The translations under genes and the position numbers were made by a program. A DNA stretch of 64,000 nt, taken from positions 339,977-403,976 of the forward strand of contig JAPLUW010000001.1 in the NCBI GenBank assembly GCA_026397405.1, read 5' to 3'. This document shows positions 7,409 to 26,524 of the stretch, one piece after another; within the stretch, counting starts at the first letter, position 1, and every line of letters begins with the position of its first letter. The notes below the pieces were generated by a model. That model was not told the DNA's origin. It ran no database searches and saw only the letters and a program-made list of their open reading frames with translations. Source of the stretch: Candidatus Adlerbacteria bacterium. GTDB taxonomy: Bacteria > Patescibacteriota > Minisyncoccia > Phycocordibacterales > SBAW01.

Positions 7409-7412
7409 GAAA

Positions 7413-7985
7413 ATGGAAGGGAAACTCATACTCGTTGTCAGTCCTGCAGGCGGCGGAAAGAGTACCTTGCTCAAATATCTGCGGGAACAGATGCCCGAGA
7501 TCGTCTTCCCAGTTTCGTGCACAACAAGGCCGATGCGTCCAGGCGAAGTAGATGGCGCGGTGTATCATTTTATTAGTGACGAAGACTTTCAGGCACGTGC
7601 TGCTCGAGATGAATTTTTGGAATGGGTATATACCGACGGCAAACGCTACGGGACCCTTATATCCGAAATTGTCCCTGCGGTAGAAGCTGGCAAGACAGTG
7701 GTGCGAGAAATTGATATAAAAGGTTTTTACAAAATCCAAGACATTTTGCCTAAAGAAAATGTTCGCACTATTTATATAGACGCCGGCACGTGGGACGACT
7801 TAGAAAAACGCATCGTTGCGCGCGCACCGATAGAGCAAACAGAACTTGCCTCGCGTCGCGCACGTTTTGAAGCTGAAGCGCCGTTTAAAGACCACGCAGA
7901 CATCGTAGTAAAAAACCCGGACGGCGGCTTGGAAGTGGCTAAACACGACTTTGTTGCGGCAGTGCAAACACTTTCTGCGAAGTAA
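7413..7985 (+). CDS. gmk: Guanylate kinase
   Basis: P-loop SPAGGGKST, and the SCTTRPMRPGEVDGAVYHFIS motif that is diagnostic for guanylate kinase. Confidence 0.8.
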   Translation: MEGKLILVVSPAGGGKSTLLKYLREQMPEIVFPVSCTTRPMRPGEVDGAVYHFISDEDFQARAARDEFLEWVYTDGKRYGTLISEIVPAVEAGKTVVREIDIKGFYKIQDILPKENVRTIYIDAGTWDDLEKRIVARAPIEQTELASRRARFEAEAPFKDHADIVVKNPDGGLEVAKHDFVAAVQTLSAK

Positions 7986-7991
7986 TGTACA

Positions 7992-8594
7992 ATGCAAAGC
8001 GTGAATAAACAGACACTTATATTTTTAGGACCGCAAGGATGCGGGAAGGGGACGCAAATTGCACTCTTAAAAGAGCTTTTAAAAACAAAGGATGCGGGGC
8101 GGGAAATTGTCCATTTTGAAATGGGCAAATGTTTGCGTGAACTTGGCGCGCAGGAAACATTTACCGGCACAAAAACAGCACATATTTTGCACGAAGGTGG
8201 GCTTATCCCATACGCGATAAGCTGCTCGGTGTTTGTGCAATATTTGATGCAACACGCGTCGCAGGCAGAGGAACATATTATTATCGACGGCTTTCCTCGT
8301 ACAAAAGACCAGGTGCCTATGCTCGACTCCGCACTCGACTTTTTTAATGCAAAGCCAGCTGTGGTGGTGTGTATAAATATTTCAGACGAAGAGGCAGTAA
8401 AACGCCTCCTGTTGCGTGGTCGCCATGATGACACAGAAGAAAGTATCCGCACACGGCTCGAGTGGTCGCGCAATGACACCATGCCAAACATCGCGTGGTT
8501 CCGTGCTAACCCGTCTTACACCGTGCTCGACATTGAAGGTGAGCGAACAGTAGAGGAAATTCATGCTGACATTGTGCAAAAGTTAGGATTGTAA
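7992..8594 (+). CDS. adk: Adenylate kinase (short form without a zinc lid)
   Basis: GPQGCGKGTQ P-loop, IIDGFPRT NMP-binding motif and RxDD LID residues. Confidence 0.8.
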   Translation: MQSVNKQTLIFLGPQGCGKGTQIALLKELLKTKDAGREIVHFEMGKCLRELGAQETFTGTKTAHILHEGGLIPYAISCSVFVQYLMQHASQAEEHIIIDGFPRTKDQVPMLDSALDFFNAKPAVVVCINISDEEAVKRLLLRGRHDDTEESIRTRLEWSRNDTMPNIAWFRANPSYTVLDIEGERTVEEIHADIVQKLGL

Positions 8595-9424: not shown

Positions 9425-10009
9425 ATGATAAATCCGAAGGAGGAAAAAACGTTTGTGCTTATTAAGCCCGACGGTGTTCGTAAAGGGCTGATAGGGGAGA
9501 TAATCAAACGCTTTGAACAGCGCGACATTAAAGTTGTGGCCCTTGAGATGTTCCAGGCAACCAAGGCGGAGATGGATAAACACTATCCTAAAGACGAAAA
9601 GTGGATACGCCGCCTCGGCGAAAAAACGTCTGCCACCTACCAAAAGTACGGCTACGATGTAAAAAAAGACTTCGGTACCGACGACTTGCTCAAAATTGGT
9701 AAGACGGTGCGCGGCTGGCTTATCGACTTTATGATAAGCGCGCCTATGGCAAAAATGGTTGTACAAGGCGTGCACGCTATAGACATGGTGCGCAAAATTG
9801 TAGGGCCGACCTTGCCGTACTTGGCCGAGATGGGCACCATACGCGGCGACTATTCCACCGACTCTCCGCTGTTGGCCAACATGGAACGCCGCCCGGTACT
9901 TAACCTTATCCATGCGTCGGAAACTCCCGAAGAAGCTAAGCATGAAATCGCGCACTGGTTTGGCAAAAAAACAATTTTCAAATACAAGCGTTTTGGTATT
10001 GACGAGTAG
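9425..10009 (+). CDS. ndk: Nucleoside diphosphate kinase
   Basis: FVLIKPDGVRKGLIGEIIKRFE N-terminus and the NLIHASE active-site His region. Start taken at ATG 9425; the longer ORF from 9410 begins with TTG. Confidence 0.8.
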   Translation: MINPKEEKTFVLIKPDGVRKGLIGEIIKRFEQRDIKVVALEMFQATKAEMDKHYPKDEKWIRRLGEKTSATYQKYGYDVKKDFGTDDLLKIGKTVRGWLIDFMISAPMAKMVVQGVHAIDMVRKIVGPTLPYLAEMGTIRGDYSTDSPLLANMERRPVLNLIHASETPEEAKHEIAHWFGKKTIFKYKRFGIDE

Positions 10010-10103
10010 AGAGCGTAAGGGCAAATACTTAAGGAAAAGTCTGGCCTGCTGGGAGCAGGAGATCCGAGGACTTTTTCGAAAGTATTTGCCCTTTAGCGTT
10101 TGT

Positions 10104-10111
10104 GATATAAT
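10104..10111 (+). promoter_or_regulatory. Extended -10 element TGaTATAAT upstream of the ribonuclease gene
   Basis: The sequence tgtgatataat is seen directly. It would give a leader of about 165 nt. Confidence 0.3.
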
Positions 10112-10284
10112 TGGCGCAGGACCCTGGAAGCAAATGTCCTTAAGTGATCTACCGGGAGTTCGCTGTCGGGCAGCACCGTGGTGTGGCTCGTAGAACACCC
10201 ACTTTACACAAAAGTAGACACTTGCTTCCCTGGTCCCACAGAGCACCCCGCGTCCGGCGCGGGATTTTCTGTAAAAAACTTTCA

Positions 10285-11667
10285 ATGGAGAATAAATCAA
10301 CCATATTTTTTTACGGTGGGGCAGGCACGGTTACGGGCTCAAATTTTTTGCTAGATGGAGGACATTCTAAAATTTTAATAGACTGCGGTTTGTTCCAAGG
10401 CGAACATTCCTTTGACGACACCAACTGGTTGCCGTTCCCCTTTAACCCTGGCGAGATTTCATATTTAATAAATACACACGCACACATCGACCACATTGGA
10501 CGTATTCCAAAGTTGGTTAAAGACGGCTACACGGGGAGGATACTTTCAACCGAAGCAACTAAAGCGCTTGCAGAGCCGATGCTCTTGGACGCCATGGAAC
10601 TTTCCCGCCGTACAGCCGAACATATTGGCAAAGAGCCGTTGTATGACGAAGTGGATATTAGACAGGCGCTTTCGCAGTGGGACACGGTGCCGTACCACAA
10701 GGTAGTGGAGCTGCCCGACGGTTTTAGTGTTGAGTTTTTCGACAGCGGGCACATTTTAGGTTCGGCACTAGCGAAATTTACCCGAGCAGGGAAGTCGGTC
10801 GTGTTTACGGGTGACTTGGGCGGAGGCAATTCGCCCCTACTTTCACTCTGCGAAATACCAGAAGGTGTCGACTATTTAGTGATGGAAAGCGTATACGGCG
10901 ACCGTGTGCAAAAAGACCGCACCAACCGCCTTGAGGATCTTGGGAAATATATTACAGACAATGCAGAGCGCGGCGGCACGTTACTTATCCCTGCATTTTC
11001 AACCGAACGCACACAGGACTTGCTGTATGAAATCCGCGCACTTATGACAGAAAAAAAAGTTCCGAGTGTGCCGGTGTACCTAGACTCGCCTCTCGCAGAG
11101 AAAATTACCGCCAGCTACCTGGCCTACCCGCAGTATTTTAGTAAGGCAATGCAACAGCGCGTGCAGGGTGGAGAGCATATTTTTGAATTCGCCGAACTGC
11201 AGTATGTGCACGACGCAGGGGAGTCTCGCGCAATTGCAGCACGCCCTGGCCCTAAAATTATTTTGGCGGGTTCGGGTATGAGCAACGGTGGCCGCGTTGT
11301 TGGCCACGAAGCCGAGATATTGCCCGACCAAAAGTCGACCGTGCTTATTGTTGGCTACCAAGCTGCGGGGAGTTTAGGTCGCAAACTCGCAGAAGGCGCC
11401 AAACAAGTGTCGATAAAAGGCCAAAAAATTACTGTCCGTGCACATGTCGACACTATGTACGGGTATTCGGCGCATATGGACAGCGAACAGCTGTTGGCAT
11501 TTGCACAACAGGTGGGTGAGGCAAACACAGGTGGCGGTTTACGGGAAGTGTTTGTCGTGATGGGCGAACCTGCAGCGGCAAGTTTTTTAGTACAGCGCCT
11601 ACGCGACTACGTAGGACTACATGCCACAGCACCCACTGCAGGTGAAAAAGCAGAAGTGGCGGTATAA
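10285..11667 (+). CDS. MBL-fold beta-CASP ribonuclease (RNase J / CPSF-like)
   Basis: HxHxDH motif (NTHAHIDHIG), beta-CASP D and H motifs, and an RMMBL-like C-terminus. Start at ATG 10285 (MENKSTIFFYGGAGTV). Confidence 0.75.
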   Translation: MENKSTIFFYGGAGTVTGSNFLLDGGHSKILIDCGLFQGEHSFDDTNWLPFPFNPGEISYLINTHAHIDHIGRIPKLVKDGYTGRILSTEATKALAEPMLLDAMELSRRTAEHIGKEPLYDEVDIRQALSQWDTVPYHKVVELPDGFSVEFFDSGHILGSALAKFTRAGKSVVFTGDLGGGNSPLLSLCEIPEGVDYLVMESVYGDRVQKDRTNRLEDLGKYITDNAERGGTLLIPAFSTERTQDLLYEIRALMTEKKVPSVPVYLDSPLAEKITASYLAYPQYFSKAMQQRVQGGEHIFEFAELQYVHDAGESRAIAARPGPKIILAGSGMSNGGRVVGHEAEILPDQKSTVLIVGYQAAGSLGRKLAEGAKQVSIKGQKITVRAHVDTMYGYSAHMDSEQLLAFAQQVGEANTGGGLREVFVVMGEPAAASFLVQRLRDYVGLHATAPTAGEKAEVAV

Positions 11668-11678
11668 TCTCTACAGAT

Positions 11679-12272
11679 ATGGAACAGACGTATATGCCGG
11701 GGCAGATAAAAATTGGAGTGGCGGGTGCAGCCGAGACTGGCCACTGTGGCATTGATGCAGAAGAAAAGGGAAAGGAGCTTGGCCGCCAAATCGCACAACA
11801 AGGCGCGATACTTTTGACTGGCGCTACAACCGGCTTCCCCATGTGGAGTGCGATGGGTGCCAAAGAAGCAGGAGGACTTTCTGTGGGGCTTTCGCCTGCG
11901 ACAGGCGAGAAAGAGCATATCGAGACATACAACCTACCGCTCGAGTATATGGACATGATAGTTTACACCGGTTTTGGGTACCCGGGGCGTGATATTATTT
12001 TTACCCACTCCACAGACGGCATGCTCTTTGGCTGCGGGCGCATTGGCACTATACACGAATTTACCGTCGCGTTTGAAGACGGTAAACCAATAGGCATTTT
12101 AGAAGGCGCGTGGGAAACAGACGAAGTGTTGCATGACATCATTAACAACGGCCACCGCCCAAGTGACATGATTATTTTTGACAGCGACCCTAAGGCGTTG
12201 GTGGAGAGGGTCGTAGAGATGGTTAAAAAAGACAGAGTTAAACGTGCGGGTTTCCACGTGGCTGCGCTCTAA
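11679..12272 (+). CDS. LOG / TIGR00725-family Rossmann-fold protein (possible lysine-decarboxylase-like nucleotide-binding protein)
   Basis: IGVAGAA...LLTGATTG glycine-rich motifs of the LOG/SLOG fold. Assigned on family resemblance only. Confidence 0.5.
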   Translation: MEQTYMPGQIKIGVAGAAETGHCGIDAEEKGKELGRQIAQQGAILLTGATTGFPMWSAMGAKEAGGLSVGLSPATGEKEHIETYNLPLEYMDMIVYTGFGYPGRDIIFTHSTDGMLFGCGRIGTIHEFTVAFEDGKPIGILEGAWETDEVLHDIINNGHRPSDMIIFDSDPKALVERVVEMVKKDRVKRAGFHVAAL

Positions 12273-12338
12273 AGAGTAGCCCGATTATACCCAGCAGGTG
12301 CCTTTTGTTTGAGGGGTATGTACCGTATCTTTATATAT

Positions 12339-14321
12339 ATGCAACAATTTTTACGTACAAAAACTCTTCTCTCTTTTGTATTCGCTCTTTCTTTTCTATG
12401 TGTACCGACGTTAGCCCTTGCCCAAGAAGACGGCGAACAGCAGGGTCCGGCGCCAGAACAACAGCAACAATATGACGAACCTACGCAGTCTGCACAAACA
12501 AGTAGCGACGACAATAGTTTATACGGCGGCAGCACGGAAGGTGCCAGCACCGCATCCTTTAGTTTCTTCGACACACCTGCACTTGAAACCTCCGGCTGGG
12601 GTGGGGAGGGAAGTCTGGGCGAACCTCAAGTCGGTGGAGGTAGTACTGGCTTTAGCGAACTTCAGCGGCAACTTACCCAAAGTGCTGAACAGACTTATAA
12701 CGGTCCAACAGAAGTACCGATCGAATACAGTAACAGAGACCAACAGGACTTGCTCAATAGCCAACTTCCTAACAAATACGACTACATCAACCAAAGTTTA
12801 ACCAACACTAACAATGTTGGAACCTACGATTTCTTCCCTGAAGGTACTGTGTCACCAGAATTTAATACTCTTGAAAACAGCCTTACCCGCAATGAACTAA
12901 ACGATCCATATTTGCTTAACAAAGACGTTCCTCCTGTTTCGGCTCTTGACTATCAACGGCTGGACCAAGCTCAAGCGCGTGCAGAGCAAGATGCGTTGAA
13001 TGCGCAGCTGAACGAAAATGCGGCAAATAATCCCAATTTGACAGGCCCAGACACGCCGACCCTTTTACAAAATTTGGAAACATGGGCGTTTGGTGGGCCA
13101 AATGAGGGCGGCGACGAAAAAGGCGTTAACGCCGGAGGTAAACCTTTGCCTTCAGAAGAACTTGGAACCACCCTTGAGTCGGGTATCAAAGAGCTTAGGA
13201 CTAGCCCCGAAACGGGAAGCAAGGAAGACTATATTTTCAGTGAAAAAAATGGCGGTTCCTGGATACCGCTTCCTCTCAGTGGGCAGGAGCGTACAGATGT
13301 GGTGAATAGACTACAGGCCGAAGGATATCTTGCAGAAGGGCAAAATGCCAAAATTGTAGAAGTGCGCGACGGCGCAATAAATGCGGAACCAATTGGGTTT
13401 GGTCTGCCCGGCATGTCCCCTACGTCTCCCAGCTCTTCTGCGGGGCCCGATGTGAACATACCTCCTGGTTCTAGCGCTGGCGGCAAACCGTTACCATACG
13501 ACGAGAAAGAAAGTACTATGGTTCCAGCCGGACAGACGCTGGGCGTCGCAGATGGAAAAGGTTCGCGGCTCCTACTGGCAACTCCTGGAGTGGGCGGTTC
13601 TAGTCCAGCACCCGAACAGGCGTCTACCCCTGCCCCAAGCACACAAAGTGGGGGAGGGCTACAAAACTTTGTAGGGAATATTGGTTCGGCTGTGGGTGAA
13701 TTTGGCGCGAAGGTCGGAGATGTTGTAGGTAAGGGAATTACTTCAGTTGCAGACACTCTTTCCGGTTGGGGGAGCTCTATTGGAGGTTTGTTTAGTAGCA
13801 CACCACCTGCGGCATCAAGTGGTTCAAAATATCTCGATTCAACGCCGTCTGTGGGAGACTCTCCAGTAAACCAGGCCGGGGCTCCTACGACCCTGCCGGT
13901 CACGCCAGTTTCTGCTCCTACCGAACCTACCCCTGCCCCTGCTCCATCATCTCCTGCTCCGGCAGAGCAAAAAGTGGGTGGTCCAAGCACTACCCAAATA
14001 CCTCCTTGGAAAGAGGAAGAAGAAACCGTGTTTGTGCCGCCTGCAGCAATTCAAGAAAAATTAACCCCTCCACCTCCAGGTACGCCCTTAGACAGTCCAG
14101 CATCCAAGGCGTATGACGCGCAACTGACAAGAGTTTACGAAGCGATAAACGGACTGGCCCCTGATGAGAAGCAGGCTCTTGTGGAGCAGAAAAAACAATT
14201 GGAAGTCGAAAACAAGCCAGTTCCTCCATGGATGCAAAGCGCAGTCAACCAGATAAATCTTCAAAATGCAATTTTGGAGCAACAGAAGGATTTCTTGAAA
14301 AGAAAAGGGCTTACTAATTAG
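12339..14321 (+). CDS. Large secreted low-complexity (Pro/Ser/Gly/Gln-rich) protein, paralog 1
   Basis: Signal-peptide-like N-terminus (MQQFLRTKTLLSFVFALSFLCVPTLALAQE). About 660 aa with biased composition. Shares motifs with the downstream gene (AQEDGEQQGP..., SFFDTPALETSGWGG). Confidence 0.6.
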   Translation: MQQFLRTKTLLSFVFALSFLCVPTLALAQEDGEQQGPAPEQQQQYDEPTQSAQTSSDDNSLYGGSTEGASTASFSFFDTPALETSGWGGEGSLGEPQVGGGSTGFSELQRQLTQSAEQTYNGPTEVPIEYSNRDQQDLLNSQLPNKYDYINQSLTNTNNVGTYDFFPEGTVSPEFNTLENSLTRNELNDPYLLNKDVPPVSALDYQRLDQAQARAEQDALNAQLNENAANNPNLTGPDTPTLLQNLETWAFGGPNEGGDEKGVNAGGKPLPSEELGTTLESGIKELRTSPETGSKEDYIFSEKNGGSWIPLPLSGQERTDVVNRLQAEGYLAEGQNAKIVEVRDGAINAEPIGFGLPGMSPTSPSSSAGPDVNIPPGSSAGGKPLPYDEKESTMVPAGQTLGVADGKGSRLLLATPGVGGSSPAPEQASTPAPSTQSGGGLQNFVGNIGSAVGEFGAKVGDVVGKGITSVADTLSGWGSSIGGLFSSTPPAASSGSKYLDSTPSVGDSPVNQAGAPTTLPVTPVSAPTEPTPAPAPSSPAPAEQKVGGPSTTQIPPWKEEEETVFVPPAAIQEKLTPPPPGTPLDSPASKAYDAQLTRVYEAINGLAPDEKQALVEQKKQLEVENKPVPPWMQSAVNQINLQNAILEQQKDFLKRKGLTN

Positions 14322-14392
14322 CCGGTCTTCTGTAAGTTATACCCACCCCCTTCTTCTGCCTATGGGGAATATCAGCTATTGTTAGGGGACAT

Positions 14393-16882
14393 ATGCAATT
14401 TTTTATAGGCAAAAAAGTCGCCACTATTAGTTTTGTTGTAGCGTCGGCAGTGTTGTGTGCGCCGCTTGTTGCGCTCGCTCAAGATACTGCGCCGCAGCCC
14501 CAACAATCATTTCTTGGTTTTATAGTACAAAACATATTTTTGTCACCGTTGTCGTTTGCCGCGCCGTCGCTTGAAGCTGCGTCGGCTATGCGTGCGGTAC
14601 TTGCCCAAGAAGGCGGCGAACAGTCAGGGCCCGAACCAGAGGCCCAGCCCATGCAAAACGAAGAGCCCACACAACCTGCACCCGTCGACTCTTCGTTTGG
14701 CGGTAATACAGAAGTCGGTGGCGGCGGTGGAGGTTCTGGTAGTACGGGAGATCCAACTTCTGTCCCAATTAGTTTTTTCGACCCACCAGCACTCAAAACA
14801 TTTGGGTGGGGAGGAGGGCCGCTTCAACCGGAAACATCAGAACCCATTAAATATGAAGTAACAGAAAGTCGATATACAGAGCAAGGAGGACAAGAGTATA
14901 CACCGCTTAACCAAGCTCAGAAGCCCCAACAACAGGGGCCAGAGCCGGAGCAGCAGATTGGTGCAAATGGAGTGGCACAAAACGGACCAGTTGATCCTTC
15001 GTTTGGTGGTAATGCGGAAGTTGCTGTCGGGGGCGGATTCAGTCTTTTTAAAAAACCCCAACAGGAAACACCAGAGTTAGGACAAGAACCTGTACAATAT
15101 AAAACACAAGACACTGCATATAAAGAACTAGACTATATGCCGCTTAACCAAGCTCAAGCGCCAGCACCAAAGCAACAAGATTCGCTGAATGCACAAAATG
15201 TACTCGCCACATCAAAATTTCTCGACGCAAACGGAGTGTCACCAGAGGAACAAAAAACTATTTTGGGTGGGCTCTATGACTTTGTAACTGGTGCAGATAC
15301 AAAAGATGGCCCGATGGTTTCTAACTCTGGATGTAAAACTCCAGATGGGTCCTCATGTACTCTAGAAAGCAAATATCTAGGAGGTTCACGTCCCCAGCTA
15401 GGGAATGATTATGATACAGGCATACGCGCCCTGCCAAATGTGTATGTAAACACTGCCCCTTTTACTTTTGCATATGTTGAGAAAGGCGGTGTCGGATATT
15501 GGTACAGTCTTGGATATAATAGTGAACCAGAGGGAATCGCTAAAGGAGTAGCAGCTTTAAAGGAAGAAGGTTATGAGAATATTCGAGGAGTCGTGCTAAC
15601 AGCGGGGGGAGCAGAGACTAAAGAGGTAAATTTGATGCCGGCGGGTGGTTTGCAGCAAATCGAAACATACACTGTTCCTGGTGCAACTGCTGATAAGCTT
15701 GCTCCTACGCTTCCGCCCGGTTTTGATCCTAATACTAGTCTTGAGGAGGGCAAGAAAGATTTAATATCTCGCAGTGCGGATGCTGTTTTTGTGGATAATA
15801 AATGGTATCCATCGCCAGTAGATCTCAATGAGAGAAAAGCTTTGATAGAACAACTACAGGCAAAAGGAGATGTAACAGAGATACGGAGTGGCGGAATATA
15901 TGAGTTTAAAAGTCAGCCTGGAGGAGCCCCTTCAGGACCGCAAGGGAATGAAAATCCATCACCAAACACTGGTCCTCGTAACGAAGTACCGCCAGGTCTG
16001 GGCCCCCGCGCAGTTGCTGGACTTGAAACTACAGTAGGTCTTCCGGGTTCAAAGCTCCCACCATTTAATCTCACTCCAGGCTCTAATGTGTTGCCTACAT
16101 TTAGCAACCCTACTCCTAATAAGCCATATGACCCTTTATATGGTACTGATAATATTGTCCCAGCTGGCGCTAAGATGCCAGTAGTTGGTGGTGGCACAGG
16201 CTCTAACACCCCAGGGTCTGCTGTCACAGGCGGGGGCAGCGCAGGAGTTGAATCTTCATATTATGTAAATCTCAAAGGGGAAGGTACCGGCTTGGTTACC
16301 TTGCGTGAAGGTCAAGCACCACCAGCCGGGTACACTCGTGTGTGGTCCACAGGGGACGGTGGTTTTACACCTACTGCACCAACCCGTGAAGGAGGGCAGA
16401 GCTTCGCTGAAACGGCTCTGGTAAATAGAATACAGGCAAGTGCTAATGCTCCTGTCCCTGTCGAGCCTCCCGGTTTCTTCGAACGGGCATGGAATTTTAT
16501 TACAGGACGTTCCTCTAGTGCTCCTGCTCCAACTTCACAAACCCCATATTCTTCAGTAGATGACCTGTTGCGTACCGACCGACCGGCTACTCCCGCCGCT
16601 ACCACACCGACAAGTGCTAATAACTTCACGATTGACCCGGCTACAGGGCGTGTTACAGCAGTTGATCCTATTACAGGGCGTACTTCCGCAGTAGATGTTC
16701 CAGTTTCTCGCTCTGCTACTTCGCCAGCGCCCGCTACTGAATCTCCGTCTTTTTGGAGTGATCCTATTGGTTATTTAAGCAGCAAGGGGATCATTGGACC
16801 ACCACCAAAAGTTTTGCAAGCACCGCCACCACAAAAGCAACCTGAAGGGTTTCTCATTGGCGGTGGTATTAGAATAAGGTAA
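14393..16882 (+). CDS. Large secreted low-complexity protein, paralog 2, with internal repeats
   Basis: Signal peptide plus AQEGGEQSGPEPE and SFFDPPALKTFGWGG motifs paralogous to the upstream gene. Internal duplications (VDSSFGGNTEV / VDPSFGGNAEV, Y[TM]PLNQAQ). 829 aa. Confidence 0.6.
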   Translation: MQFFIGKKVATISFVVASAVLCAPLVALAQDTAPQPQQSFLGFIVQNIFLSPLSFAAPSLEAASAMRAVLAQEGGEQSGPEPEAQPMQNEEPTQPAPVDSSFGGNTEVGGGGGGSGSTGDPTSVPISFFDPPALKTFGWGGGPLQPETSEPIKYEVTESRYTEQGGQEYTPLNQAQKPQQQGPEPEQQIGANGVAQNGPVDPSFGGNAEVAVGGGFSLFKKPQQETPELGQEPVQYKTQDTAYKELDYMPLNQAQAPAPKQQDSLNAQNVLATSKFLDANGVSPEEQKTILGGLYDFVTGADTKDGPMVSNSGCKTPDGSSCTLESKYLGGSRPQLGNDYDTGIRALPNVYVNTAPFTFAYVEKGGVGYWYSLGYNSEPEGIAKGVAALKEEGYENIRGVVLTAGGAETKEVNLMPAGGLQQIETYTVPGATADKLAPTLPPGFDPNTSLEEGKKDLISRSADAVFVDNKWYPSPVDLNERKALIEQLQAKGDVTEIRSGGIYEFKSQPGGAPSGPQGNENPSPNTGPRNEVPPGLGPRAVAGLETTVGLPGSKLPPFNLTPGSNVLPTFSNPTPNKPYDPLYGTDNIVPAGAKMPVVGGGTGSNTPGSAVTGGGSAGVESSYYVNLKGEGTGLVTLREGQAPPAGYTRVWSTGDGGFTPTAPTREGGQSFAETALVNRIQASANAPVPVEPPGFFERAWNFITGRSSSAPAPTSQTPYSSVDDLLRTDRPATPAATTPTSANNFTIDPATGRVTAVDPITGRTSAVDVPVSRSATSPAPATESPSFWSDPIGYLSSKGIIGPPPKVLQAPPPQKQPEGFLIGGGIRIR

Positions 16883-19341: not shown

Positions 19342-19878
19342 ATGGAGGATACTGCACAACAATTTGCCGAAATATTCGAGAAACATTCGGACGAGCTCTT
19401 TCGGCACGCGGTTATGCGCCTGTCCGACCGCGAACGCGCGGTTGAACTGACGCAAGAGACCTTCCTTAAGGCATGGAACTATATGTCAAAAGGCGGTGAA
19501 GAAGTTCGCCAGTACCGTTCGTTCCTGTATCGTATTTTGAACAACCTCATCATAGACGAGTACAGAAAACACAAAACCCAGTCGCTAGACGCCATGCTCG
19601 AACATGAGACGACCGAACAAGCGGTTGAAGGCACATTGCTTCGCGATGAAACGGACAATATGGAAGAGGCGATGATCCGGTTTGAAAGCGCCGCCGCAGT
19701 TAAAGCGCTCACGCAGCTTACAGAGCAGCACCGTACCGTACTCGTGATGCGCTACATTGACGGCCTGTCCCCAAAAGAGATTGCAGAAACGATGCAAGAG
19801 AGCGAAAATACGATATCAGTACGCATCCATCGGGGCATAAAAAAGTTACGCGAACTGCTCGAGGAAAACCCTATATGA
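19342..19878 (+). CDS. ECF-type RNA polymerase sigma factor (sigma-70 regions 2 and 4)
   Basis: Region 2 (LFRHAVMRLSDRERAVELTQETFLKAW) and region 4 HTH (LSPKEIAETMQESENTISVRIHRGIKKLRE). Confidence 0.75.
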   Translation: MEDTAQQFAEIFEKHSDELFRHAVMRLSDRERAVELTQETFLKAWNYMSKGGEEVRQYRSFLYRILNNLIIDEYRKHKTQSLDAMLEHETTEQAVEGTLLRDETDNMEEAMIRFESAAAVKALTQLTEQHRTVLVMRYIDGLSPKEIAETMQESENTISVRIHRGIKKLRELLEENPI

Positions 19879-20687
19879 ACAAACTACACACCCACCTACA
19901 AAACGAAACTACGCACATCCGCCTAAGCGATGCGGAAAAGAGCGCCATGCGCGCGAGGTTAGAAGAGGTAATGCGTGCTATGCCTGCACAACCTATGCCC
20001 GCGTACACACCCAGCCCCTATGCGTGGATATTGTTGCCGCGCTCACTCGCGCTTTCGGCATTTGCACTGCTACTTATCATTTCTACCAGTACGGCATATG
20101 CCGCAGAAGGCTCGCTACCTGGGGGCACACTCTACCCGGTAAAAGTAAGCGTTATCGAACCACTTAAAGTTGCACTTGCAACCAGCCCTGCAGCAAAAGC
20201 ACAAGTTAATGCCGACATCGCCACCGTGCGTGTGCGGGAAGCACAAATATTGGCAGTGCAGGGCAAACTAACACCACAAACGGCACAAGAAATTTCTGAA
20301 AACTACAGCAGACATGCCGCAGAGGCACTTGCCCTTGCAGAAGACTCCGATGCTGCGCTCGGCATAGTGGCTTCGACTACAGTTCTTGCTGTAGCGCCCC
20401 AAGTCGCGCCAGTTCCTGAGGAGGACGATACTTATAGTAAGGACGAGGAAGCCCCAGCATTGTCTATGCGGGTTAATACTATGCAAGCCATAGTAGCTAC
20501 AAAAAAAGCTGCACTAGCTGCTCCTACAACAACAATGCCAGTACCGCAGGCTACATCGACCCACTCCAAAGTAGATACAAGAGAAAGTTTTTCCAAGAGA
20601 ATGCATGCGTCGCTTGAAGAGCAGGCCGACATTTTGCACAGTTTACATATAGACGTGCGCGCCCAAAACAAAAACCGCCGAGACTAG
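19875..20687 (+). CDS. Putative anti-sigma factor (single-pass membrane protein co-transcribed with the ECF sigma)
   Basis: ATGA start/stop overlap with the sigma gene. A cytoplasmic N-terminus, one TM helix (LALSAFALLLIISTSTAYA) and an extracytoplasmic Ala-rich domain. The role is inferred from context. Confidence 0.45.
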   Translation: MNKLHTHLQNETTHIRLSDAEKSAMRARLEEVMRAMPAQPMPAYTPSPYAWILLPRSLALSAFALLLIISTSTAYAAEGSLPGGTLYPVKVSVIEPLKVALATSPAAKAQVNADIATVRVREAQILAVQGKLTPQTAQEISENYSRHAAEALALAEDSDAALGIVASTTVLAVAPQVAPVPEEDDTYSKDEEAPALSMRVNTMQAIVATKKAALAAPTTTMPVPQATSTHSKVDTRESFSKRMHASLEEQADILHSLHIDVRAQNKNRRD

Positions 20688-21547: not shown

Positions 21548-21760
21548 ATGACAACAGTAGTTAACAACCCGACCCCGAGCGACAGCACAGACGGAAGTGC
21601 AGGGTGGGCGGTAGCAGTTATTATCCTCATCGCGGTCATTATTGCAGGCGGGTACTGGTATACACATCGCCGTGCTGCAGCAGCGCCGAGCGGTGGGACA
21701 AATATAAATGTCACCCTTCCAGCGACGGGTGGGAACACAAACCCCCAGCCTGCTCAATAA
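21548..21760 (+). CDS. Small single-TM membrane protein (hypothetical)
   Basis: 70 aa with a central hydrophobic helix (WAVAVIILIAVIIAGGYWY). A hairpin terminator follows at 21783-21812. Confidence 0.35.
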   Translation: MTTVVNNPTPSDSTDGSAGWAVAVIILIAVIIAGGYWYTHRRAAAAPSGGTNINVTLPATGGNTNPQPAQ

Positions 21761-21782
21761 AATAAAAGCTATAGCCGTAGCA

Positions 21783-21812
21783 AAACCCCTCACATGCGAG
21801 GGGTTTTGTGAT
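21783..21812 (+). terminator. Hairpin CCCCTC-ACATGC-GAGGGG followed by a T run
   Basis: Inverted repeat seen directly downstream of the small membrane ORF. Confidence 0.45.
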
Positions 21813-21824
21813 ATTGTAGGAGCC

Positions 21825-22184
21825 ATGAAAGTACGCACACTGCGAACTCCCGAGATGGAGGCGAAATATCAAGCAATGAAAGACAGCGGGGTGATGTCCC
21901 ACGAGTGCCGTCTGTGCGAAGAGGATATCTCCATGACCTTTACTTATTGGCGGCTCATACCAAACCGCTTTCCGTACAACAAAGTGTTTGAACCGTGCGA
22001 CATGTTAATACCTATCCGCCATACTGCCGAACTTAACGAAGAAGAAAAGGCGGAGTTTGAGGAAATAAAAAAGTCGTACATCAACTCCCATTACAGGTAC
22101 ATTATGGAAGCAACGCACTCAACCAAGTCTATTCCGCAGCACTACCATGTGCATTTGGTCGAGATAAAAGAAGAAGAGAAATAA
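21825..22184 (+). CDS. HIT-family (histidine triad) protein with a CxxC motif
   Basis: Histidine triad HYHVHLV near the C-terminus, and HECRLCEE upstream. Start chosen at ATG 21825; the ORF extends to 21708. Confidence 0.5.
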   Translation: MKVRTLRTPEMEAKYQAMKDSGVMSHECRLCEEDISMTFTYWRLIPNRFPYNKVFEPCDMLIPIRHTAELNEEEKAEFEEIKKSYINSHYRYIMEATHSTKSIPQHYHVHLVEIKEEEK

Positions 22185-22232
22185 AAAGGGAATTATATAT
22201 TCCGAGTGGGGGGGGTGGTAAAGAAAAGAGCG

Positions 22233-22258
22233 TTGTCATATTTCAGACAACGCTCGAA
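22233..22258 (-). terminator. Hairpin GAGCGTTGTC-atatttcag-GACAACGCTC downstream of the minus-strand two-gene islet
   Basis: 10-bp inverted repeat, followed on the minus strand by a T-rich run. Confidence 0.4.
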
Positions 22259-22281
22259 GTTCAAGAGCAGGAAGCTGCCAG

Positions 22282-22731
22282 TCAGCTTGGGTAACAACCT
22301 GCAGGATAATCAGAACCCCAAGTGATTTCCTCCAATCCGTGAACGCAGTTAGAACCCAGGAGGAGTTCGTCATTGCGTTCACCGATACATGGAACCACCA
22401 AGCGTCGGTTGGAACTCCTGCCTACCGACCTCCACAAAAACAGAGTGGTTCGGCCGAACAGTCCGCGGAAGACCTCCAGACCTTTCTGTTGTATGGCGAG
22501 GCCGTCCGCGTAGCCCAGGCATCCTTCGAGCATGTTGTTGCGCGTGAGATGCCCGTAGAGTGTTTGTCCTTTCGCTCCCTCCTTCTGCTTCTCGTGCAGC
22601 CAGAGTTGGATAGCGGCGAGGTCGTACTCGGCAGGCCCAGTCGTTGCCAACTCAGGATGCAACGGTTTCTTCAGCCATTGGGGTTGGGTGGGTACTGTCG
22701 AACGGTCGATACGCACGATTGTGTCAACCAT
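22282..22731 (-). CDS. Hypothetical protein (GC-rich islet gene 2)
   Basis: 149-aa ORF with a GGGGG SD 6 nt before the ATG. GC content is clearly higher than the flanks. The opposite-strand ORF 22339-22956 looks like an Arg-rich antisense artefact. Confidence 0.4.
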   Translation of the reverse strand: MVDTIVRIDRSTVPTQPQWLKKPLHPELATTGPAEYDLAAIQLWLHEKQKEGAKGQTLYGHLTRNNMLEGCLGYADGLAIQQKGLEVFRGLFGRTTLFLWRSVGRSSNRRLVVPCIGERNDELLLGSNCVHGLEEITWGSDYPAGCYPS

Positions 22732-22743
22732 GTGCGCCCCCGG

Positions 22744-22974
22744 TTACTTCTTCTTGTTGAGCGTCGGACAGCCGGCATCACGCTCGGTGTTGATCTCGAC
22801 CCACGATGCCCGAGGATCAAGCTTCATGGCCTCTGCCATGTTCCGGCGCAGTCCGTCCATGGAACCACCACCGTCAATCAAGACCGGGCAGTCCTTCGGC
22901 CACACCGACTTCTTTTCCTGCGCCACAGCAGCAGTGCAGGGAAGAAGCAGAACTAGAATAACGATGACTCGCAT
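22744..22974 (-). CDS. Small secreted protein (GC-rich islet gene 1)
   Basis: Signal peptide MRVIVILVLLLPCTAAVAQE. 76 aa with 2 Cys in the mature part. Its stop lies 13 nt upstream of the next ORF. Confidence 0.45.
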   Translation of the reverse strand: MRVIVILVLLLPCTAAVAQEKKSVWPKDCPVLIDGGGSMDGLRRNMAEAMKLDPRASWVEINTERDAGCPTLNKKK

Positions 22975-23045
22975 TAATTACCCGATACCCATTCAAGGGG
23001 TCCTTTCAGGACATATAATGCCTATTTTAATAGAAAAGTCAATAG

Positions 23046-23425
23046 TTGTGGAGATGGGCGGAATTGAACCGCCGTGCAATGAAGTGCTACTGGAGCTTCT
23101 ACGGAGTCTAGTTCGCTTTTTGTTTCTTTAGCGTGTCATGGGCTAAGCGAACGAAATCATGACACCCTGCAGCTCCTTAGTTTCAGCTTCAGACCGAAGC
23201 GGTTTCTGAAGTAATACCTTTGCTATATAACATCCGGTCTCAACCCGCAAAGTGGGGAAGAGTGAATGCGACTAGGCCTTGGCGTAAGCGAAAGCGAAAT
23301 CGTTCGCCGAAAAATACGGCGAGGCAACTGTTTTTGCAGTTATGTTTTCCAGATTTTTAGAGAGGTCTGGGCTCTCACTACGCGCATCCGAATAGATGGC
23401 TTCATTGTCTAGGCCTGGCATCCCC
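23046..23425 (-). ncRNA. ssrA: tmRNA (SsrA)
   Basis: The minus strand shows the tRNA-like 3' end GGCGGTTCAATTCCGCCCATCTCCAC and a 5' GGGGATGCC that pair as an acceptor stem with G3:U70. Internal tag ORF GCG AAC GAT TTC GCT TTC GCT TAC GCC AAG GCC TAG at 23272-23307. Adjacent to smpB. Confidence 0.85.
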
Positions 23426-23478: not shown

Positions 23479-23922
23479 TTATTGATTTTTCAAAGTTCTG
23501 CTGATGTCGCGCTTGGTGTCCCTTTCTTTTAAGACGGCACGCTTGTCGTACTTCTTACGGCCGCGCGCGACAGCGATTTTTACCTTCAACTTAGAGCCTT
23601 TATTATACACCGAAAGTGGCACCAATGTCAAGCCTTTCTGACCCTCAAATTCGGCCAATATTCCTAGCTCTTTTTTAGTCAACAAGAGTTTGCGGCTGCG
23701 TTCCGGGTCATAGTCGTCAGGGGTATTTGCCACTTGAAACGGCGGCACGCTCATTCCCACAATGTACGCCTCGCCTGCACGTACTACTATATGCGCACCT
23801 TCAAGCTTGCCGTGTTTCGCGCGGATACTTTTAACTTCGTGGCCGAGCAATTCCAAGCCTGCCTCAAATTCTTCGAGTAGGTCGTAGTTCATTCGCGCCT
23901 TTTTGTGTTCCAGTAAGTTCAC
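23479..23922 (-). CDS. smpB: SsrA-binding protein SmpB
   Basis: 147 aa. SmpB motifs (KARMNYDLLEEFEAGLELLGHEVKSIR...) and a basic C-terminal tail. Adjacent to ssrA. Confidence 0.85.
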   Translation of the reverse strand: MNLLEHKKARMNYDLLEEFEAGLELLGHEVKSIRAKHGKLEGAHIVVRAGEAYIVGMSVPPFQVANTPDDYDPERSRKLLLTKKELGILAEFEGQKGLTLVPLSVYNKGSKLKVKIAVARGRKKYDKRAVLKERDTKRDISRTLKNQ

Positions 23923-23978: not shown

Positions 23979-25916
23979 ATGCCTGAACAAAAGAATAAAA
24001 ACAAAAAGCGCGGGCTTAAAGTCCCCAAGATGCCACGCAGCGACTCGTTCTGGGTCAACGCAGCAACAAGCCTGTTGCTGCTCTTTTTGCTCGCAAGCGC
24101 CTACACCTATTTTGCAGCAGACAAAACAACTGCGCCTGTAGACATCGCCATTTCTGAACTTGCGAGTGACGTCCAGGGCGGCCGCGTGAGTGCAATTACT
24201 GTTGACGGCGATGACCTGCAAATTACCTACGCCGACAAGACTGAAAAAATTTCTAAAAAGGAAACTGGTACCGCACTTTCCCAAACACTCTTTAACTACG
24301 GTGTGCCAGCCGCGTCGCTCGACAAAATTTCTATCAATATCAAGCGCGAAAGTGGATGGAGTTTTTGGCTCACAACTCTCGCACCGTTTTTGGCACCACT
24401 CCTGTTGATTGCATTTTTTGTTTGGTATCTCTCACGTCAGGTTAAAGGCGCCGGCATGCAAGCGTTTTCGTTTGGGCAGTCTAAACACCGCGTCATTGAC
24501 CCTAACGACAAGTCACAAAAAGTTACGTTTAAAGATGTTGCAGGCGCTAAAGAAGCAAAGATAGAACTGCTCGAAATTGTCGATTTTTTGAAAAACCCAA
24601 AAAAGTTTTTGGACATTGGCGCACGTATCCCTAAAGGTATTTTGTTGATGGGCTCTGCCGGTACCGGCAAGACCTTGCTTGCACGTGCAGTAGCAGGGGA
24701 GGCAGGTGTGCCGTTCTACTCTATTTCAGGTTCGGAATTTGTTGAAATGTTTGTCGGCGTTGGTGCATCGCGCGTGCGCGATCTCTTCCATATGGCAAAG
24801 CATTCGGCACCGTCTATTATCTTTGTTGACGAAATTGACGCAGTCGGCCGCGTGCGCGGCACCGGTGTTGGCGGCGGCAACGACGAACGTGAACAAACAC
24901 TGAACCAAATTTTGGTTGAAATGGACGGTTTCGAGCCAAACGAAAAAGTTATCGTTATGGCAGCTACTAACCGCCCCGACGTGCTCGACCCAGCACTGGT
25001 GCGCCCGGGCCGCTTTGACCGCCGCGTTGTTATCGAACTTCCGGACCGCCAAGACCGAAACGAAATTTTGCATATCCATGCCCGCAAAAAACCACTCGCC
25101 GAAGATGTAAACCTTTCAGTCATTGCAGAGCGTACACCGGGCTTTTCTGGTGCCGACTTAGCAAACCTGATGAACGAAGGTGCGATTTTGGCTGCACGTG
25201 AAGCGCGCAAAACAGTTGCGCAATTCGACCTTATCCGTTCAATTGAGAAAGTGATGCTTGGCCCCGAGCGCAAGTCGCACGTGATGAACGCCAAAGAAAA
25301 AGAAATAACCGCCTACCACGAAGCGGGCCACGCACTTGTTGCATCACTCTTGCCGCATGCCGACCCAGTGCACAAAATCTCTATCATCTCCCGCGGCCGC
25401 GCTGCAGGGTATACGTTGAAGTTGCCGTTTGAAGACAAGCGCATGCAAAGCAAAAAAGAATTTTTGGACGACATCGCGATGTCGCTCGGCGGCTACATTG
25501 CCGAAAAAGAAGTGTTTAGCGACGTGACAACCGGGCCGTCCAACGACCTCCAGGTTTCAAGTGCGCTTGCGCGCGACATGGTTACTAAGTTTGGTATGTC
25601 AGAGAAAATCGGCACCGTGGCACTTGAAGGTAGCGACGGCCGCGCATTGTTTGGCTCGGGCGTATCTGGTAAAGAATATTCTGAAAAAGTTTCTGGCGAT
25701 ATCGACTCTGAAGTAAAGCGCATTATGGACGAAGCATACGCAAAAGCGCTGAACATAATTACCGAACACCGAAAAGTTTTGAACGCTATTGCCGGCCGCC
25801 TTGTCGAAGTAGAAACTCTCGAGCGCGAAGAGTTTGAAGGTATTTTGGTCGCGCACGGCATCCCTCTCAAAAAGAAACAAGAAATTACTACCGAGCCCGT
25901 TACCGTTAATTTTTAA
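23979..25916 (+). CDS. ftsH: ATP-dependent zinc metalloprotease FtsH
   Basis: N-terminal TMs, AAA+ Walker [12 protein letters not shown], and the HEAGHA zinc-binding motif. Confidence 0.9.
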
Positions 25917-26437: not shown

Positions 26438-26450
26438 TTTCTGTCTTTTG

Positions 26451-26524
26451 TGTGCCTGCCTGGACTCGAACCAGGGACCGCCGAGGTATAAGCTCGGAGC
26501 TCTAACCAACTGAGCTACAGGCAC
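26451..26524 (-). tRNA. tRNA with anticodon UAU (tRNA-Ile, AUA decoder)
   Basis: Manual cloverleaf: acceptor GTGCCTG/CAGGCAC, D-arm GCTC...GAGC, anticodon stem CCGAG/CTCGG with loop CTTATAC (anticodon TAT), T-arm CCTGG-TTCGAGT-CCAGG. Confidence 0.7.

What the first reader, a model, noticed from the sequence alone, without database searches (positions are those of the whole stretch)
22200..23045. GC-rich two-gene islet inserted exactly at the 3' end of ssrA
The roughly 800 bp immediately downstream of the tmRNA 3' end (minus strand) encode a small secreted protein (22744-22974) and a 149-aa unknown protein (22282-22731). GC content and codon usage are visibly higher than in the flanks, and the segment has its own terminator. 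The 3' end of ssrA is a classic integration hotspot. No integrase and no clear direct repeat were found, so it may be a decayed island remnant carrying a small secreted effector-like module.
Basis: partly seen in the sequence, partly recalled or inferred. Interest (0 to 1): 0.5.

Follow-up and report, generated by a model that had tools for sequence, protein, structure and literature searches.

The report
Orphaned DGR variable-protein gene beside ssrA
The GC-rich 860-bp insert after the tmRNA gene of this Candidatus Adlerbacteria genome carries a stranded, partly degenerated copy of a protein gene that related bacteria hypermutate with a diversity-generating retroelement; it is a relic of a known kind of system, not a new effector module.

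Summary
tmRNA lies at 23046-23425(-). Two ORFs and a terminator follow it. The segment is the most GC-rich 693-nt stretch of the window (0.566 vs 0.493, z=3.1).

The segment is lineage-specific. The closest relative found (L008, SmpB 97% identical) keeps the same gene order, but ssrA and the 158-aa gene there are about 40-100 nt apart. None of 65 related loci has either ORF.

The 149-aa ORF belongs to an uncurated Parcubacteria family (at least 657 proteins) of DGR variable proteins. Eight homologous loci carry VR/TR pairs whose 14-19 mismatches all or nearly all sit at TR adenines, plus bAvd and a reverse transcriptase.

The window copy is orphaned. The 64 kb hold no TR, Avd or RT. The copy lacks the N-terminal module. 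Its VR-bearing third breaks 14 of 24 family-conserved positions (others: median 1, maximum 4). Three other assemblies are identical.

High GC3 marks this gene family in all 10 loci tested, so it does not show foreign origin.

No integrase or att repeat remains, although three relatives carry a serine recombinase overlapping the ssrA 3' end. The 76-aa signal-peptide ORF has no homologues. It lies in frame with the 149-aa ORF, separated by a single TAA.

Verdict: a new member of a known kind, of modest interest.

The parts
23046..23425 (-). ssrA (tmRNA), tag AKTVASPYFSANDFAFAYAKA. It is intact. Its 3' end is the type typical of the lineage, not a chimera.
   Evidence: ARAGORN and Rfam RF00023, 87 bits, full length. 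An alignment with 11 relatives shows the window's 3' end matches L017, L015, L016 and L023. The 5' and 3' acceptor halves covary in L008.
22188..23045 (-). Lineage-specific insert (about 858 nt) between the ssrA 3' end and the stop codon of the conserved 158-aa gene. The right edge is ambiguous by a few T's.
   Evidence: Collinear alignment with L008 breaks exactly here. L008 has only about 40 nt, holding its own terminator, between the tmRNA 3' end and the shared sequence; blastn leaves about 97 nt unaligned. Neither ORF is present in 65 SmpB-anchored related loci.
23015..23042 (-). Promoter-like site, TTGACT-16-CATTAT, starting 4 nt after the tmRNA end. No terminator separates ssrA from the insert.
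   Evidence: Consensus scan, which is a weak kind of evidence. Relatives L008, L009, L022, L024, L025, L027 and L035 have a hairpin terminator at this position instead.
22744..22974 (-). 76-aa ORF with a signal-peptide-like N-terminus. It is an orphan, and it is in the same reading frame as the 149-aa ORF.
   Evidence: ORF list. A full HMMER scan of 1.84 billion representatives finds only itself plus weak hits to giant repetitive proteins. No Pfam, PHROGs or NCBIfam hit. No similarity to any family locus. GC3 is 0.68. The frame relation is shown.
22732..22746 (-). In-frame TAA stop (22744-22746) plus four codons (PGAH) that separate the two ORFs. A G-run (GGGGG) lies 7-11 nt before the ATG at 22731.
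   Evidence: Translation through the region and sequence. 22974-22731 = 243 = 81 codons.
22425..22731 (-). Conserved core of a DGR variable-protein family (IVRIDRS...GPAEYDL...WLH..QK..NNMLEGCLG...AIQQKG..FR). DNA homology to family loci begins abruptly at the ATG.
   Evidence: Homologues at 50-58% identity. Profile E-value 5.5e-71. blastn to 26 family loci starts at 22730-22735 and ends near 22424, with 66-68% identity to L005, L006 and L007. The core breaks 6 of 40 conserved columns, within the family range.
22285..22424 (-). Degenerate equivalent of the DGR variable region (VR). The scaffold W.W(L)...W / PALRF is replaced by GSNCVHGLEEITW / PAGCYPS, with a 4-aa insertion.
   Evidence: Alignments. 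14 of 24 conserved C-terminal columns are broken, against a median of 1 and a maximum of 4 in 47 other members. Identity to family TRs is 54-64% at non-A positions and 45-65% at A positions. Cognate VR/TR pairs give 98-100% at non-A positions in seven loci (0.91 and 0.81 in the degenerate L004 and L005 pairs) and about 50% at A positions. No repeat of this segment occurs in the window.
22228..22255 (-). Terminator hairpin GAGCGTTGTC-TGAAATAT-GACAACGCTC plus T-run. It is homologous to the hairpin that follows the target gene in the closest DGR cassettes.
   Evidence: Scan. L005, L007 and L080 have CCCCGCG(C)TTGTCTGAAATA(T/C)GGCAGCGCGGGG+TTTT at the same position after the stop codon.
21708..22184 (+). 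Conserved 158-aa neighbour gene (no family assignment), which marks the far edge of the insert.
   Evidence: 86% aa identity and the same position in L008; 54% in L009. No Pfam or NCBIfam hit above threshold.

Best explanation
The roughly 858-nt segment after ssrA was gained in this Adlerbacteria lineage. Its main gene (22282-22731, minus strand) is a stranded copy of a Parcubacteria DGR variable-protein gene.

In related loci the full-length gene (about 190-250 aa) consists of a variable N-terminal module, a conserved core and a C-terminal variable region (VR). It sits in a compact cassette: target(VR) - TR - bAvd (opposite strand) - reverse transcriptase. There the VR is rewritten from the TR with adenine-specific mutagenesis.

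The window copy retains only the core, the VR-equivalent and the gene's own terminator hairpin. It has lost, or never brought, the N-terminal module, TR, Avd and RT. Without a template to overwrite it, the VR-bearing third has drifted away from the family scaffold. The gene is therefore no longer being diversified.

Inference: it is either a slowly decaying relic or a 'frozen' C-type-lectin-like binding protein. Its open frame and in-frame indels argue that it stayed under some selection for much of its divergence.

The upstream 76-aa signal-peptide ORF is an orphan of unknown origin. It lies in the same frame, separated by one TAA. It may be a former N-terminal module cut off by a nonsense mutation, or an unrelated small gene.

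The elevated GC is a property of this gene family and does not signal recent transfer. How the segment arrived is not shown. The leading guess is the residue of an element integrated at the ssrA 3' end, a site used by serine-recombinase elements in relatives.
For: Shown by tools:
- Family identity. The 149-aa ORF has 50-58% identity to P0002-P0005, and the family profile finds at least 657 proteins in Parcubacteria.
- The family is a DGR target family. Eight metagenome loci have 125-128-nt VR/TR pairs with 17/17, 18/18, 17/17, 16/18, 16/18, 16/16, 19/19 and 14/14 mismatches at TR adenines. L004 and L005 show 22/31 and 19/36. bAvd and RVT_1 lie next to them.
- Orphan status. The 64 kb hold no TR-like repeat, no RT and no Avd. 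DNA homology starts at the ATG. The VR-equivalent matches no TR and shows no A-specific pattern. 14 of 24 conserved C-terminal columns are broken, against a median of 1 in other members. Three independent assemblies are 100% identical across the segment.
- Insertion. L008 keeps synteny without the segment, and it is absent from all 65 relatives.
- The terminator is homologous to the cassette terminator.
- GC3 is a family hallmark in 10 of 10 loci, while RT and avd are host-like.
- ssrA is an integration site in the clade: a serine recombinase overlaps the ssrA 3' end in L010, L043 and L016.

From the literature: Patescibacteria DGRs form their own clade, and their targets usually lack recognisable domains and are modular (PMC8144416).
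Against: - Only 64 kb of a contig of about 495 kb could be inspected, so a DGR elsewhere in the genome acting in trans is not excluded. A search with the nearest cassette RT listed no protein from this genome among its best 120, but that list is far from exhaustive.
- The ORF is intact over 149 codons, and its two indels are in frame. This fits poorly with long neutral decay, so 'relic' may understate the case.
- The three identical assemblies may sample one clonal population, so the lack of VR variation is weak evidence.
- No integrase remnant or att repeat supports the integration route.
- Core-only family members exist elsewhere (P0109, 148 aa; P0029, 155 aa), so the short form need not be a truncation.
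Confidence: 0.75

Rival explanations
1. The gene is still a live DGR target. A DGR cassette elsewhere in the genome (multi-target DGRs are common in CPR) rewrites 22285-22424 in trans, and the unusual VR scaffold simply mirrors an unusual TR.
For: Only 64 kb of about 495 kb were visible. Four of nine long family loci (L076, L085, L089, L093) also lack RT and Avd within 10 kb, so remote copies are frequent. The ORF is intact.
Against: The VR-equivalent has lost scaffold residues that are at least 96% conserved family-wide, including in the other remote copies (W.W, L, R of PALRF). It is only 54-64% identical to any family TR at non-A positions. It shows no variation among three other assemblies. 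No RT from this genome appears among the nearest 120 relatives of the closest cassette RT.
Confidence: 0.08
2. The two ORFs are one former gene: a secreted DGR variable protein of about 230 aa (signal-peptide N-terminal module plus core plus VR), split by a TAA nonsense mutation. The locus would be a pseudogene, or would be expressed by reinitiation at ATG 22731.
For: The ORFs are in the same frame, separated by TAA plus 4 codons. The combined length matches the family range of 190-256 aa. Family N-terminal modules are interchangeable and join the core exactly where homology starts in the window (PMC8144416). The 76-aa region shares the family's raised GC3 (0.68).
Against: A shared frame has a 1-in-3 chance expectation. 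None of 47 family members sampled has a signal peptide or any similarity to the 76-aa ORF. Core-only members exist (P0109, P0029).
Confidence: 0.3
3. One reading: a decayed ssrA-integrated genomic island whose surviving cargo is a small secreted effector-like two-gene module.
For: The insertion sits directly after ssrA and is absent from relatives. Serine-recombinase elements occupy the same site in L010, L043 and L016. The 76-aa ORF has a signal-peptide-like N-terminus.
Against: No integrase fragment, no att duplicate and no chimeric ssrA 3' end were found. The larger gene is a DGR variable-protein homologue, not an effector. The GC anomaly is explained by family composition. The 76-aa ORF has no homologues to support any function.
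Confidence: 0.25
4. The segment is ancestral to the group and was deleted in L008 and other relatives, rather than gained here.
For: The ssrA-downstream spacer is plastic. L009 and L012 carry a SET-domain gene there, and L011, L014 and L017 carry other genes.
Against: None of 65 relatives across the clade retains either ORF. The gene family is patchily spread over Parcubacteria. L008 has a clean ssrA terminator in place of the segment.
Confidence: 0.05

Closest known systems
Diversity-generating retroelement (DGR) variable proteins of Patescibacteria/CPR ('clade 2' DGRs of Roux et al. 2021, PMC8144416; CPR DGRs were first described by Paul et al. 2017, cited from my own knowledge)
   Same: There is clear sequence homology to a family whose members carry C-terminal VRs paired with TRs that differ only at adenines, next to bAvd and an RT. 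There is no recognisable Pfam domain and no transmembrane segment, and the N-termini are modular, as the paper reports for CPR targets.
   Different: The window copy has no TR, Avd or RT within 64 kb. It lacks an N-terminal module. Its VR scaffold is degenerate and shows no adenine-specific signature.
C-type-lectin-fold DGR variable proteins with solved structures: Mtd (1YU0), TvpA (2Y3C), TaqVP (5VF4)
Genomic islands integrated at the 3' end of ssrA (for example, the serine-recombinase elements seen here in L010, L043 and L016)
   Same: The position is the same, directly after the tmRNA 3' end. The segment is absent from the nearest relative and has anomalous composition.
   Different: There is no recombinase, no att direct repeat and no displaced ssrA 3' fragment. 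The segment is under 1 kb.

Membership tests
Complete DGR system | Reverse transcriptase of the DGR clade near the target | tested here: not met
   tblastn with the L074 RT against the 64-kb window gives no hit better than E=0.47. Homologous loci have the RT 0.8-1 kb downstream of the target. The rest of the genome could not be tested.
Complete DGR system | Template repeat (TR) matching the VR except at adenines | tested here: not met
   No repeat of 22200-22480 occurs in the window (best chance hits have E>=0.13). Identity to family TRs is 54-64% at non-A positions, with no A bias.
Complete DGR system | Accessory variability determinant (Avd) | tested here: not met
   tblastn with the L074 and L078 Avd against the window gives no hit better than E=0.34.
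Complete DGR system | Population-level hypervariation of the VR | tested here: inconclusive
   Three other assemblies from three SRA runs are 100% identical over the segment. These are consensus contigs and may derive from one population. Reads could not be examined.
Parcubacteria DGR variable-protein family (uncurated; no Pfam or NCBIfam model) | Sequence homology of the conserved core | tested here: met
   50-58% identity to P0002-P0005. Profile E=5.5e-71. 34 of 40 conserved core columns are kept.
Parcubacteria DGR variable-protein family (uncurated; no Pfam or NCBIfam model) | C-terminal VR scaffold (VVL.W.WL...W....PALRF) | tested here: not met
   14 of 24 conserved C-terminal columns are broken: W127S, W129C, L130V, R146C, F147Y and others. 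Other members show a median of 1 and a maximum of 4.
Parcubacteria DGR variable-protein family (uncurated; no Pfam or NCBIfam model) | N-terminal module of about 45-110 aa before the core | tested here: not met
   Homology starts at the ATG. Two of 47 other members sampled (P0109, P0029) are also core-only.
Parcubacteria DGR variable-protein family (uncurated; no Pfam or NCBIfam model) | GC3 well above that of host genes | tested here: met
   GC3 is 0.61, against 0.50 +/- 0.05 (maximum 0.60) in the window. The family shows z=2-33 in 10 of 10 loci.
C-type-lectin (CLec) fold of DGR variable proteins | Structural similarity to Mtd, TvpA or TaqVP | tested here: inconclusive
ssrA-integrated genomic island | Integrase or recombinase gene at the junction | tested here: not met
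   tblastn with the L010 serine recombinase against the window gives no hit at E<=0.1. ORFs in the segment have no Pfam hits.
ssrA-integrated genomic island | Direct repeat (att) of the ssrA 3' end at the distal border | tested here: not met
   Sensitive blastn with the last 71 nt of ssrA finds nothing above noise near 22180-22300 or elsewhere.
ssrA-integrated genomic island | Insertion directly after the ssrA 3' end, with an empty site in a close relative | tested here: met
   L008 is collinear on both sides and lacks the 858 nt.

The most novel reading that the evidence does not exclude
In all 10 family loci with flanks, the whole target gene (N-terminal module, core and VR) has GC3 of 0.50-0.82. 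The cognate RT and avd less than 1 kb away, and all host genes, sit at 0.26-0.60. A and T are depleted equally.

If a GC-biased process tied to repeated cDNA homing or repair, or selection on target transcripts, maintains this, then orphaned copies such as the window's would be datable 'fossils' of past DGR activity. A compositional scan could then find DGR targets without needing the TR or RT.
Probability: 0.15. Interest if true: 0.6.

Novelty: new member of a known kind. Interest (0 to 1): 0.3.

Why it matters
The result turns an anonymous 'hypothetical protein' islet into an interpretable object: a DGR variable-protein gene that has been separated from its mutagenic machinery. Such orphans show what happens to a hypervariable region once the template is gone. 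Here the scaffold decays while the core is kept.

The case also warns that GC or codon anomalies next to tRNA or tmRNA genes are not by themselves evidence of recent horizontal transfer. It documents that the ssrA 3' end is a used integration site in Parcubacteria (serine-recombinase elements in three relatives). It points to a large uncurated DGR-target family (at least 657 proteins) that deserves a Pfam or NCBIfam model.

Tried and rejected
- Structured-RNA reading of the GC-rich segment, prompted by long ORFs on both strands. Rfam at gathering threshold finds only tmRNA and tRNAs. The 205-aa plus-strand ORF (22339-22956) lies antisense to a gene with clear homologues and has no hits, so it was treated as spurious.
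- Chimeric ssrA, with the 3' end replaced by an integrating element. The window's 3' end looked diverged from L008, but it matches L017, L015, L016 and L023, and L008's 5' and 3' acceptor halves covary. Rejected.
- An att duplicate near 22200-22290: none found.
- TR, RT or Avd remnants in the window: none found.
- Homologues of the 76-aa ORF. The full HMMER scan returned only itself and weak hits to giant repetitive proteins. There was nothing in the family loci.
- Pfam, PHROGs, NCBIfam and PDB-sequence searches for the 149-aa protein or the family profile: all empty.
- Foldseek against PDB and BFVD: nothing significant. The afdb50 library was unavailable.
- A search for this genome's RT through relatives of the closest cassette RT was uninformative. 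The family exceeds 8000 proteins and only 120 were listed.
- An exact-match look-up of the 147-aa SmpB ORF failed because the called gene is 137 aa.
- An att repeat for the L010 island was not found within the 12-kb locus.
- A first VR/TR cross-table with free end gaps gave unreliable numbers for the window. It was redone with penalised ends.

Full report
**1. The observation**

ARAGORN and Rfam both place a full-length tmRNA on the minus strand at 23046/23048-23425. smpB (23479-23922, minus) and ftsH (23979-25916, plus) lie next to it.

GC of 22282-22974 is 0.566, against a window mean of 0.493 (z=3.1). No non-overlapping 693-nt window reaches that value. GC3 of both ORFs exceeds that of all 52 other long ORFs in the window.

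A 10-bp hairpin plus T-run at 22255-22228 follows the 149-aa ORF. A TTGACT-16-CATTAT site starts 4 nt after the tmRNA end.

**2. Is the segment acquired?**

The organism is a Candidatus Adlerbacteria bacterium (CPR/Parcubacteria), according to the NCBI name attached to the identical protein. I anchored on SmpB and fetched 65 related genomic loci.

The closest is L008 (SmpB 97% aa, DNA about 86%). It is collinear with the window on both sides: recG-ftsH-smpB-ssrA, then p158-p216-p270-sigma. In L008, only about 40 nt separate the tmRNA 3' end from the shared sequence at the p158 stop, and that stretch contains ssrA's own terminator. The window has about 858 nt there (22188-23045). None of the 65 loci encodes a relative of either ORF.

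The apparent divergence of the window's tmRNA 3' end from L008 is not a sign of a chimeric gene. The window's 3' end matches those of L017, L015, L016 and L023, and in L008 the 5' and 3' acceptor halves covary. There is no duplicate of the ssrA 3' end anywhere in the window.

Gain in this lineage is therefore the parsimonious reading. No molecular scar of site-specific integration remains.

**3. What the 149-aa gene is**

A first search found only four homologues (50-58% identity, 185-201 aa), all with about 45 extra N-terminal residues.

Their contigs gave the key. In L004 and L005 the last roughly 125 nt of the gene are repeated about 450 nt downstream, with mismatches mostly at adenines of the downstream copy, and a bAvd-like gene follows.

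A profile-guided scan of metagenome contigs returned 22 more loci. Eight of these contain 125-128-nt repeat pairs with 14-19 mismatches, of which 17/17, 18/18, 17/17, 16/18, 16/18, 16/16, 19/19 and 14/14 lie at adenines of the downstream copy. That is the defining signature of a DGR template repeat (TR) and variable region (VR).

Pfam identifies bAvd on the opposite strand and an RVT_1 reverse transcriptase immediately after. In L074, for example, the target is at 9797-10519, the TR at 10913-11040, avd at 11048-11473(-) and the RT at 11450-12460.

The family has at least 657 members, named only as hypothetical proteins of Nomura-, Giovannoni-, Taylor- and Adlerbacteria, and has no Pfam domain. 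NCBIfam, PHROGs and PDB-sequence searches are also empty.

This matches published descriptions. Patescibacteria DGRs form their own clade, and their targets typically lack recognisable domains and are modular fusions onto a C-terminal CLec-like region (PMC8144416).

**4. Why the window copy is an orphan**

- The 64 kb contain no TR-like repeat of the gene's 3' end, no RT and no Avd.
- DNA homology to 26 family loci begins abruptly at 22730-22735, which is the ATG, and runs to about 22424, so the N-terminal module is missing. tblastn with full-length homologues finds nothing for their first 45 residues.
- Homology resumes after the stop codon in the terminator hairpin. Compare GAGCGTTGTCTGAAATATGACAACGCTC in the window with CCCCGCGTTGTCTGAAATATGGCAGCGCGGGG in L080 (L005 and L007 are close variants). 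The transferred piece is therefore 'core + VR + terminator'.
- The VR-equivalent (22285-22424) is only 54-64% identical to family TRs at non-adenine positions and 45-65% at adenine positions, so there is no A-specific pattern. Cognate pairs are 98-100% identical at non-A positions in seven loci (0.91 and 0.81 in the degenerate L004 and L005 pairs) and about 50% at A positions. Even non-cognate VR x TR pairs reach 71-92%.
- In a leave-one-out test, the window protein breaks 14 of 24 family-conserved columns in the C-terminal third (other members: median 1, maximum 4). It breaks only 6 of 40 in the core (others: median 2, maximum 6). The lost residues include the W.W/L/W and PALRF scaffold that the TR encodes invariantly.
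- Three other assemblies from three SRA runs are 100% identical over 0.9-5.8 kb, including the VR-equivalent.

Together these results say that the region is not being rewritten from a family-type TR.

Two caveats apply. Only 64 kb of a roughly 495-kb contig were visible. The RT-based search for this genome's DGR was uninformative.

Orphan copies are not rare. L076, L085, L089 and L093 lack RT and Avd within 10 kb. Core-only members P0109 (next to rpsL-rpsG) and P0029 also have no DGR genes beside them. Unlike the window copy, the orphans whose sequences were examined keep the VR scaffold.

**5. Functional status (inference)**

The reading frame is open over all 149 codons, and the two indels relative to the family (-2 aa, +4 aa) are in frame. 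This would be unlikely after long neutral drift.

I therefore favour a history in which the gene stayed under selection on its core while the VR third, freed from TR overwriting, diverged. The outcome is either a 'frozen' ligand-binding protein or an early-stage pseudogene.

ssrA lacks the terminator that relatives have at this spot. Read-through from ssrA into the insert is therefore plausible, but untested.

**6. The 76-aa ORF**

The ORF has a convincing signal-peptide-like N-terminus, but a full HMMER scan of 1.84 billion representatives finds no homologue. It has no similarity to any family locus.

It is in the same frame as the 149-aa ORF, separated by a TAA and four codons, and it shares the raised GC3. 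A former single gene of about 230 aa split by a nonsense mutation is possible; I put this at about 0.3. However, none of 47 family members sampled has a signal peptide, and a shared frame is expected by chance one time in three.

**7. The GC anomaly**

In all 10 family loci with flanks, the target gene's GC3 (0.50-0.82) lies far above that of the other ORFs of the locus (z=2-33). The cognate RT and avd less than 1 kb away are host-like; in L082, for example, the target has GC3 0.82 and the RT 0.39.

The N-terminal module, core and VR are all enriched, and A and T are depleted equally. I have no explanation for the trait itself and flag it as the most novel lead.

**8. The integration route**

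In three relatives (L010, L043, L016) a large serine recombinase (Resolvase + Recombinase + Zn_ribbon_recom) lies antisense, overlapping the last roughly 100 nt of an intact ssrA. In L010 it is followed by an HTH gene, an AbiV/HEPN gene and a LOOT RNA.

The ssrA 3' end is thus a real attachment site in this clade, which makes 'remnant of an integrated element' a reasonable origin for the window's insert. But the window has no recombinase fragment or att repeat, and none of those islands carries a family member. The route remains inferred.

**9. Verdict**

The cargo is a stranded, partly degenerated DGR variable-protein gene plus an orphan signal-peptide ORF, not an effector module. It is a new member of a known kind. 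Interest is modest (0.3). There is a side lead, the GC3 hallmark of DGR targets, which would be more interesting if it proves general.

Noticed in passing
L074, L075, L076, L078, L080, L082, L085, L087, L089, L093 (target genes, e.g. L082 322-921; L087 9845-10441): In every family locus the DGR target gene has a GC3 of 0.50-0.82, far above the other ORFs of the locus (z=2-33). The adjacent cognate RT and avd are host-like, for example target 0.82 and RT 0.39 in L082. A and T are depleted equally, and the whole gene is affected, not only the VR. The cause is unexplained.
   Followed up: partly
L010 6755-8368(-), L043 ~6772-8373(-), L016 ~6870-8477(-): A homologous large serine recombinase (Resolvase + Recombinase + Zn_ribbon_recom) lies antisense to ssrA in three relatives and overlaps the last ~100 nt of an intact gene. 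This looks like an element family that targets ssrA in Parcubacteria. In L010 it is followed by an HTH gene and an AbiV/HEPN abortive-infection gene. No att repeat was found within the 12-kb locus.
   Followed up: partly
L010 10107-10227(+): There is a full-length match to Rfam LOOT RNA (RF03000, 86.8 bits) just beyond the AbiV gene of the putative ssrA-integrated element.
   Followed up: no
P0109 contig (ERZ1426832, gene 1248-1694); L095 176-643; L076, L085, L089, L093: Other family members also lack an adjacent RT or Avd, including a 148-aa core-only copy sitting ~200 nt upstream of rpsL-rpsG. Orphan or remote copies of this DGR target family therefore appear to be common.
   Followed up: partly
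window 22339-22956 (+): A 205-aa ORF runs antisense across both islet genes. It has no hits in any library and is most likely a by-product of the GC-rich, stop-poor antisense frame.
   Followed up: yes
window 20672 (ends of L001 and L002): Two independent Logan contigs from different runs both terminate at exactly window position 20672, just after the 270-aa gene (19875-20687) and before the 216-aa gene. A 37-nt stretch at 20665-20701 matches L008 in inverted orientation. This may be an assembly break at a repeat or a strain-variable point.
   Followed up: no
L009 6896-7336(-), L012 6812-7252(-): Two relatives carry a 146-aa SET-domain gene between ssrA and the conserved downstream genes. L011, L014 and L017 have yet other genes there, including ORFs of 69% GC in L017 (8362-9629) within a locus of 53% GC. 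The spacer downstream of ssrA is a plastic spot across the clade.
   Followed up: partly
window 26450-26524 (-): There is a tRNA-Ile with anticodon UAU between ftsH and recG. The same tRNA also lies near the tmRNA in L078 (18779-18853).
   Followed up: no
window 12417-15166: Several diverged direct repeats (families D2, D3, D5, D7; 33-62 nt, 74-85% identity, spacings of 306 and 2183 nt) suggest duplicated segments within or between large repetitive surface-protein genes.
   Followed up: no
L075 2303-2507 and 2888-3532: In one complete DGR cassette the target gene starts ~380 nt downstream of a tRNA-Pro/tRNA-Gly pair. In L078 the cassette lies ~3 kb from ssrA. No systematic link to tRNA or tmRNA genes was seen in the other loci.
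   Followed up: partly
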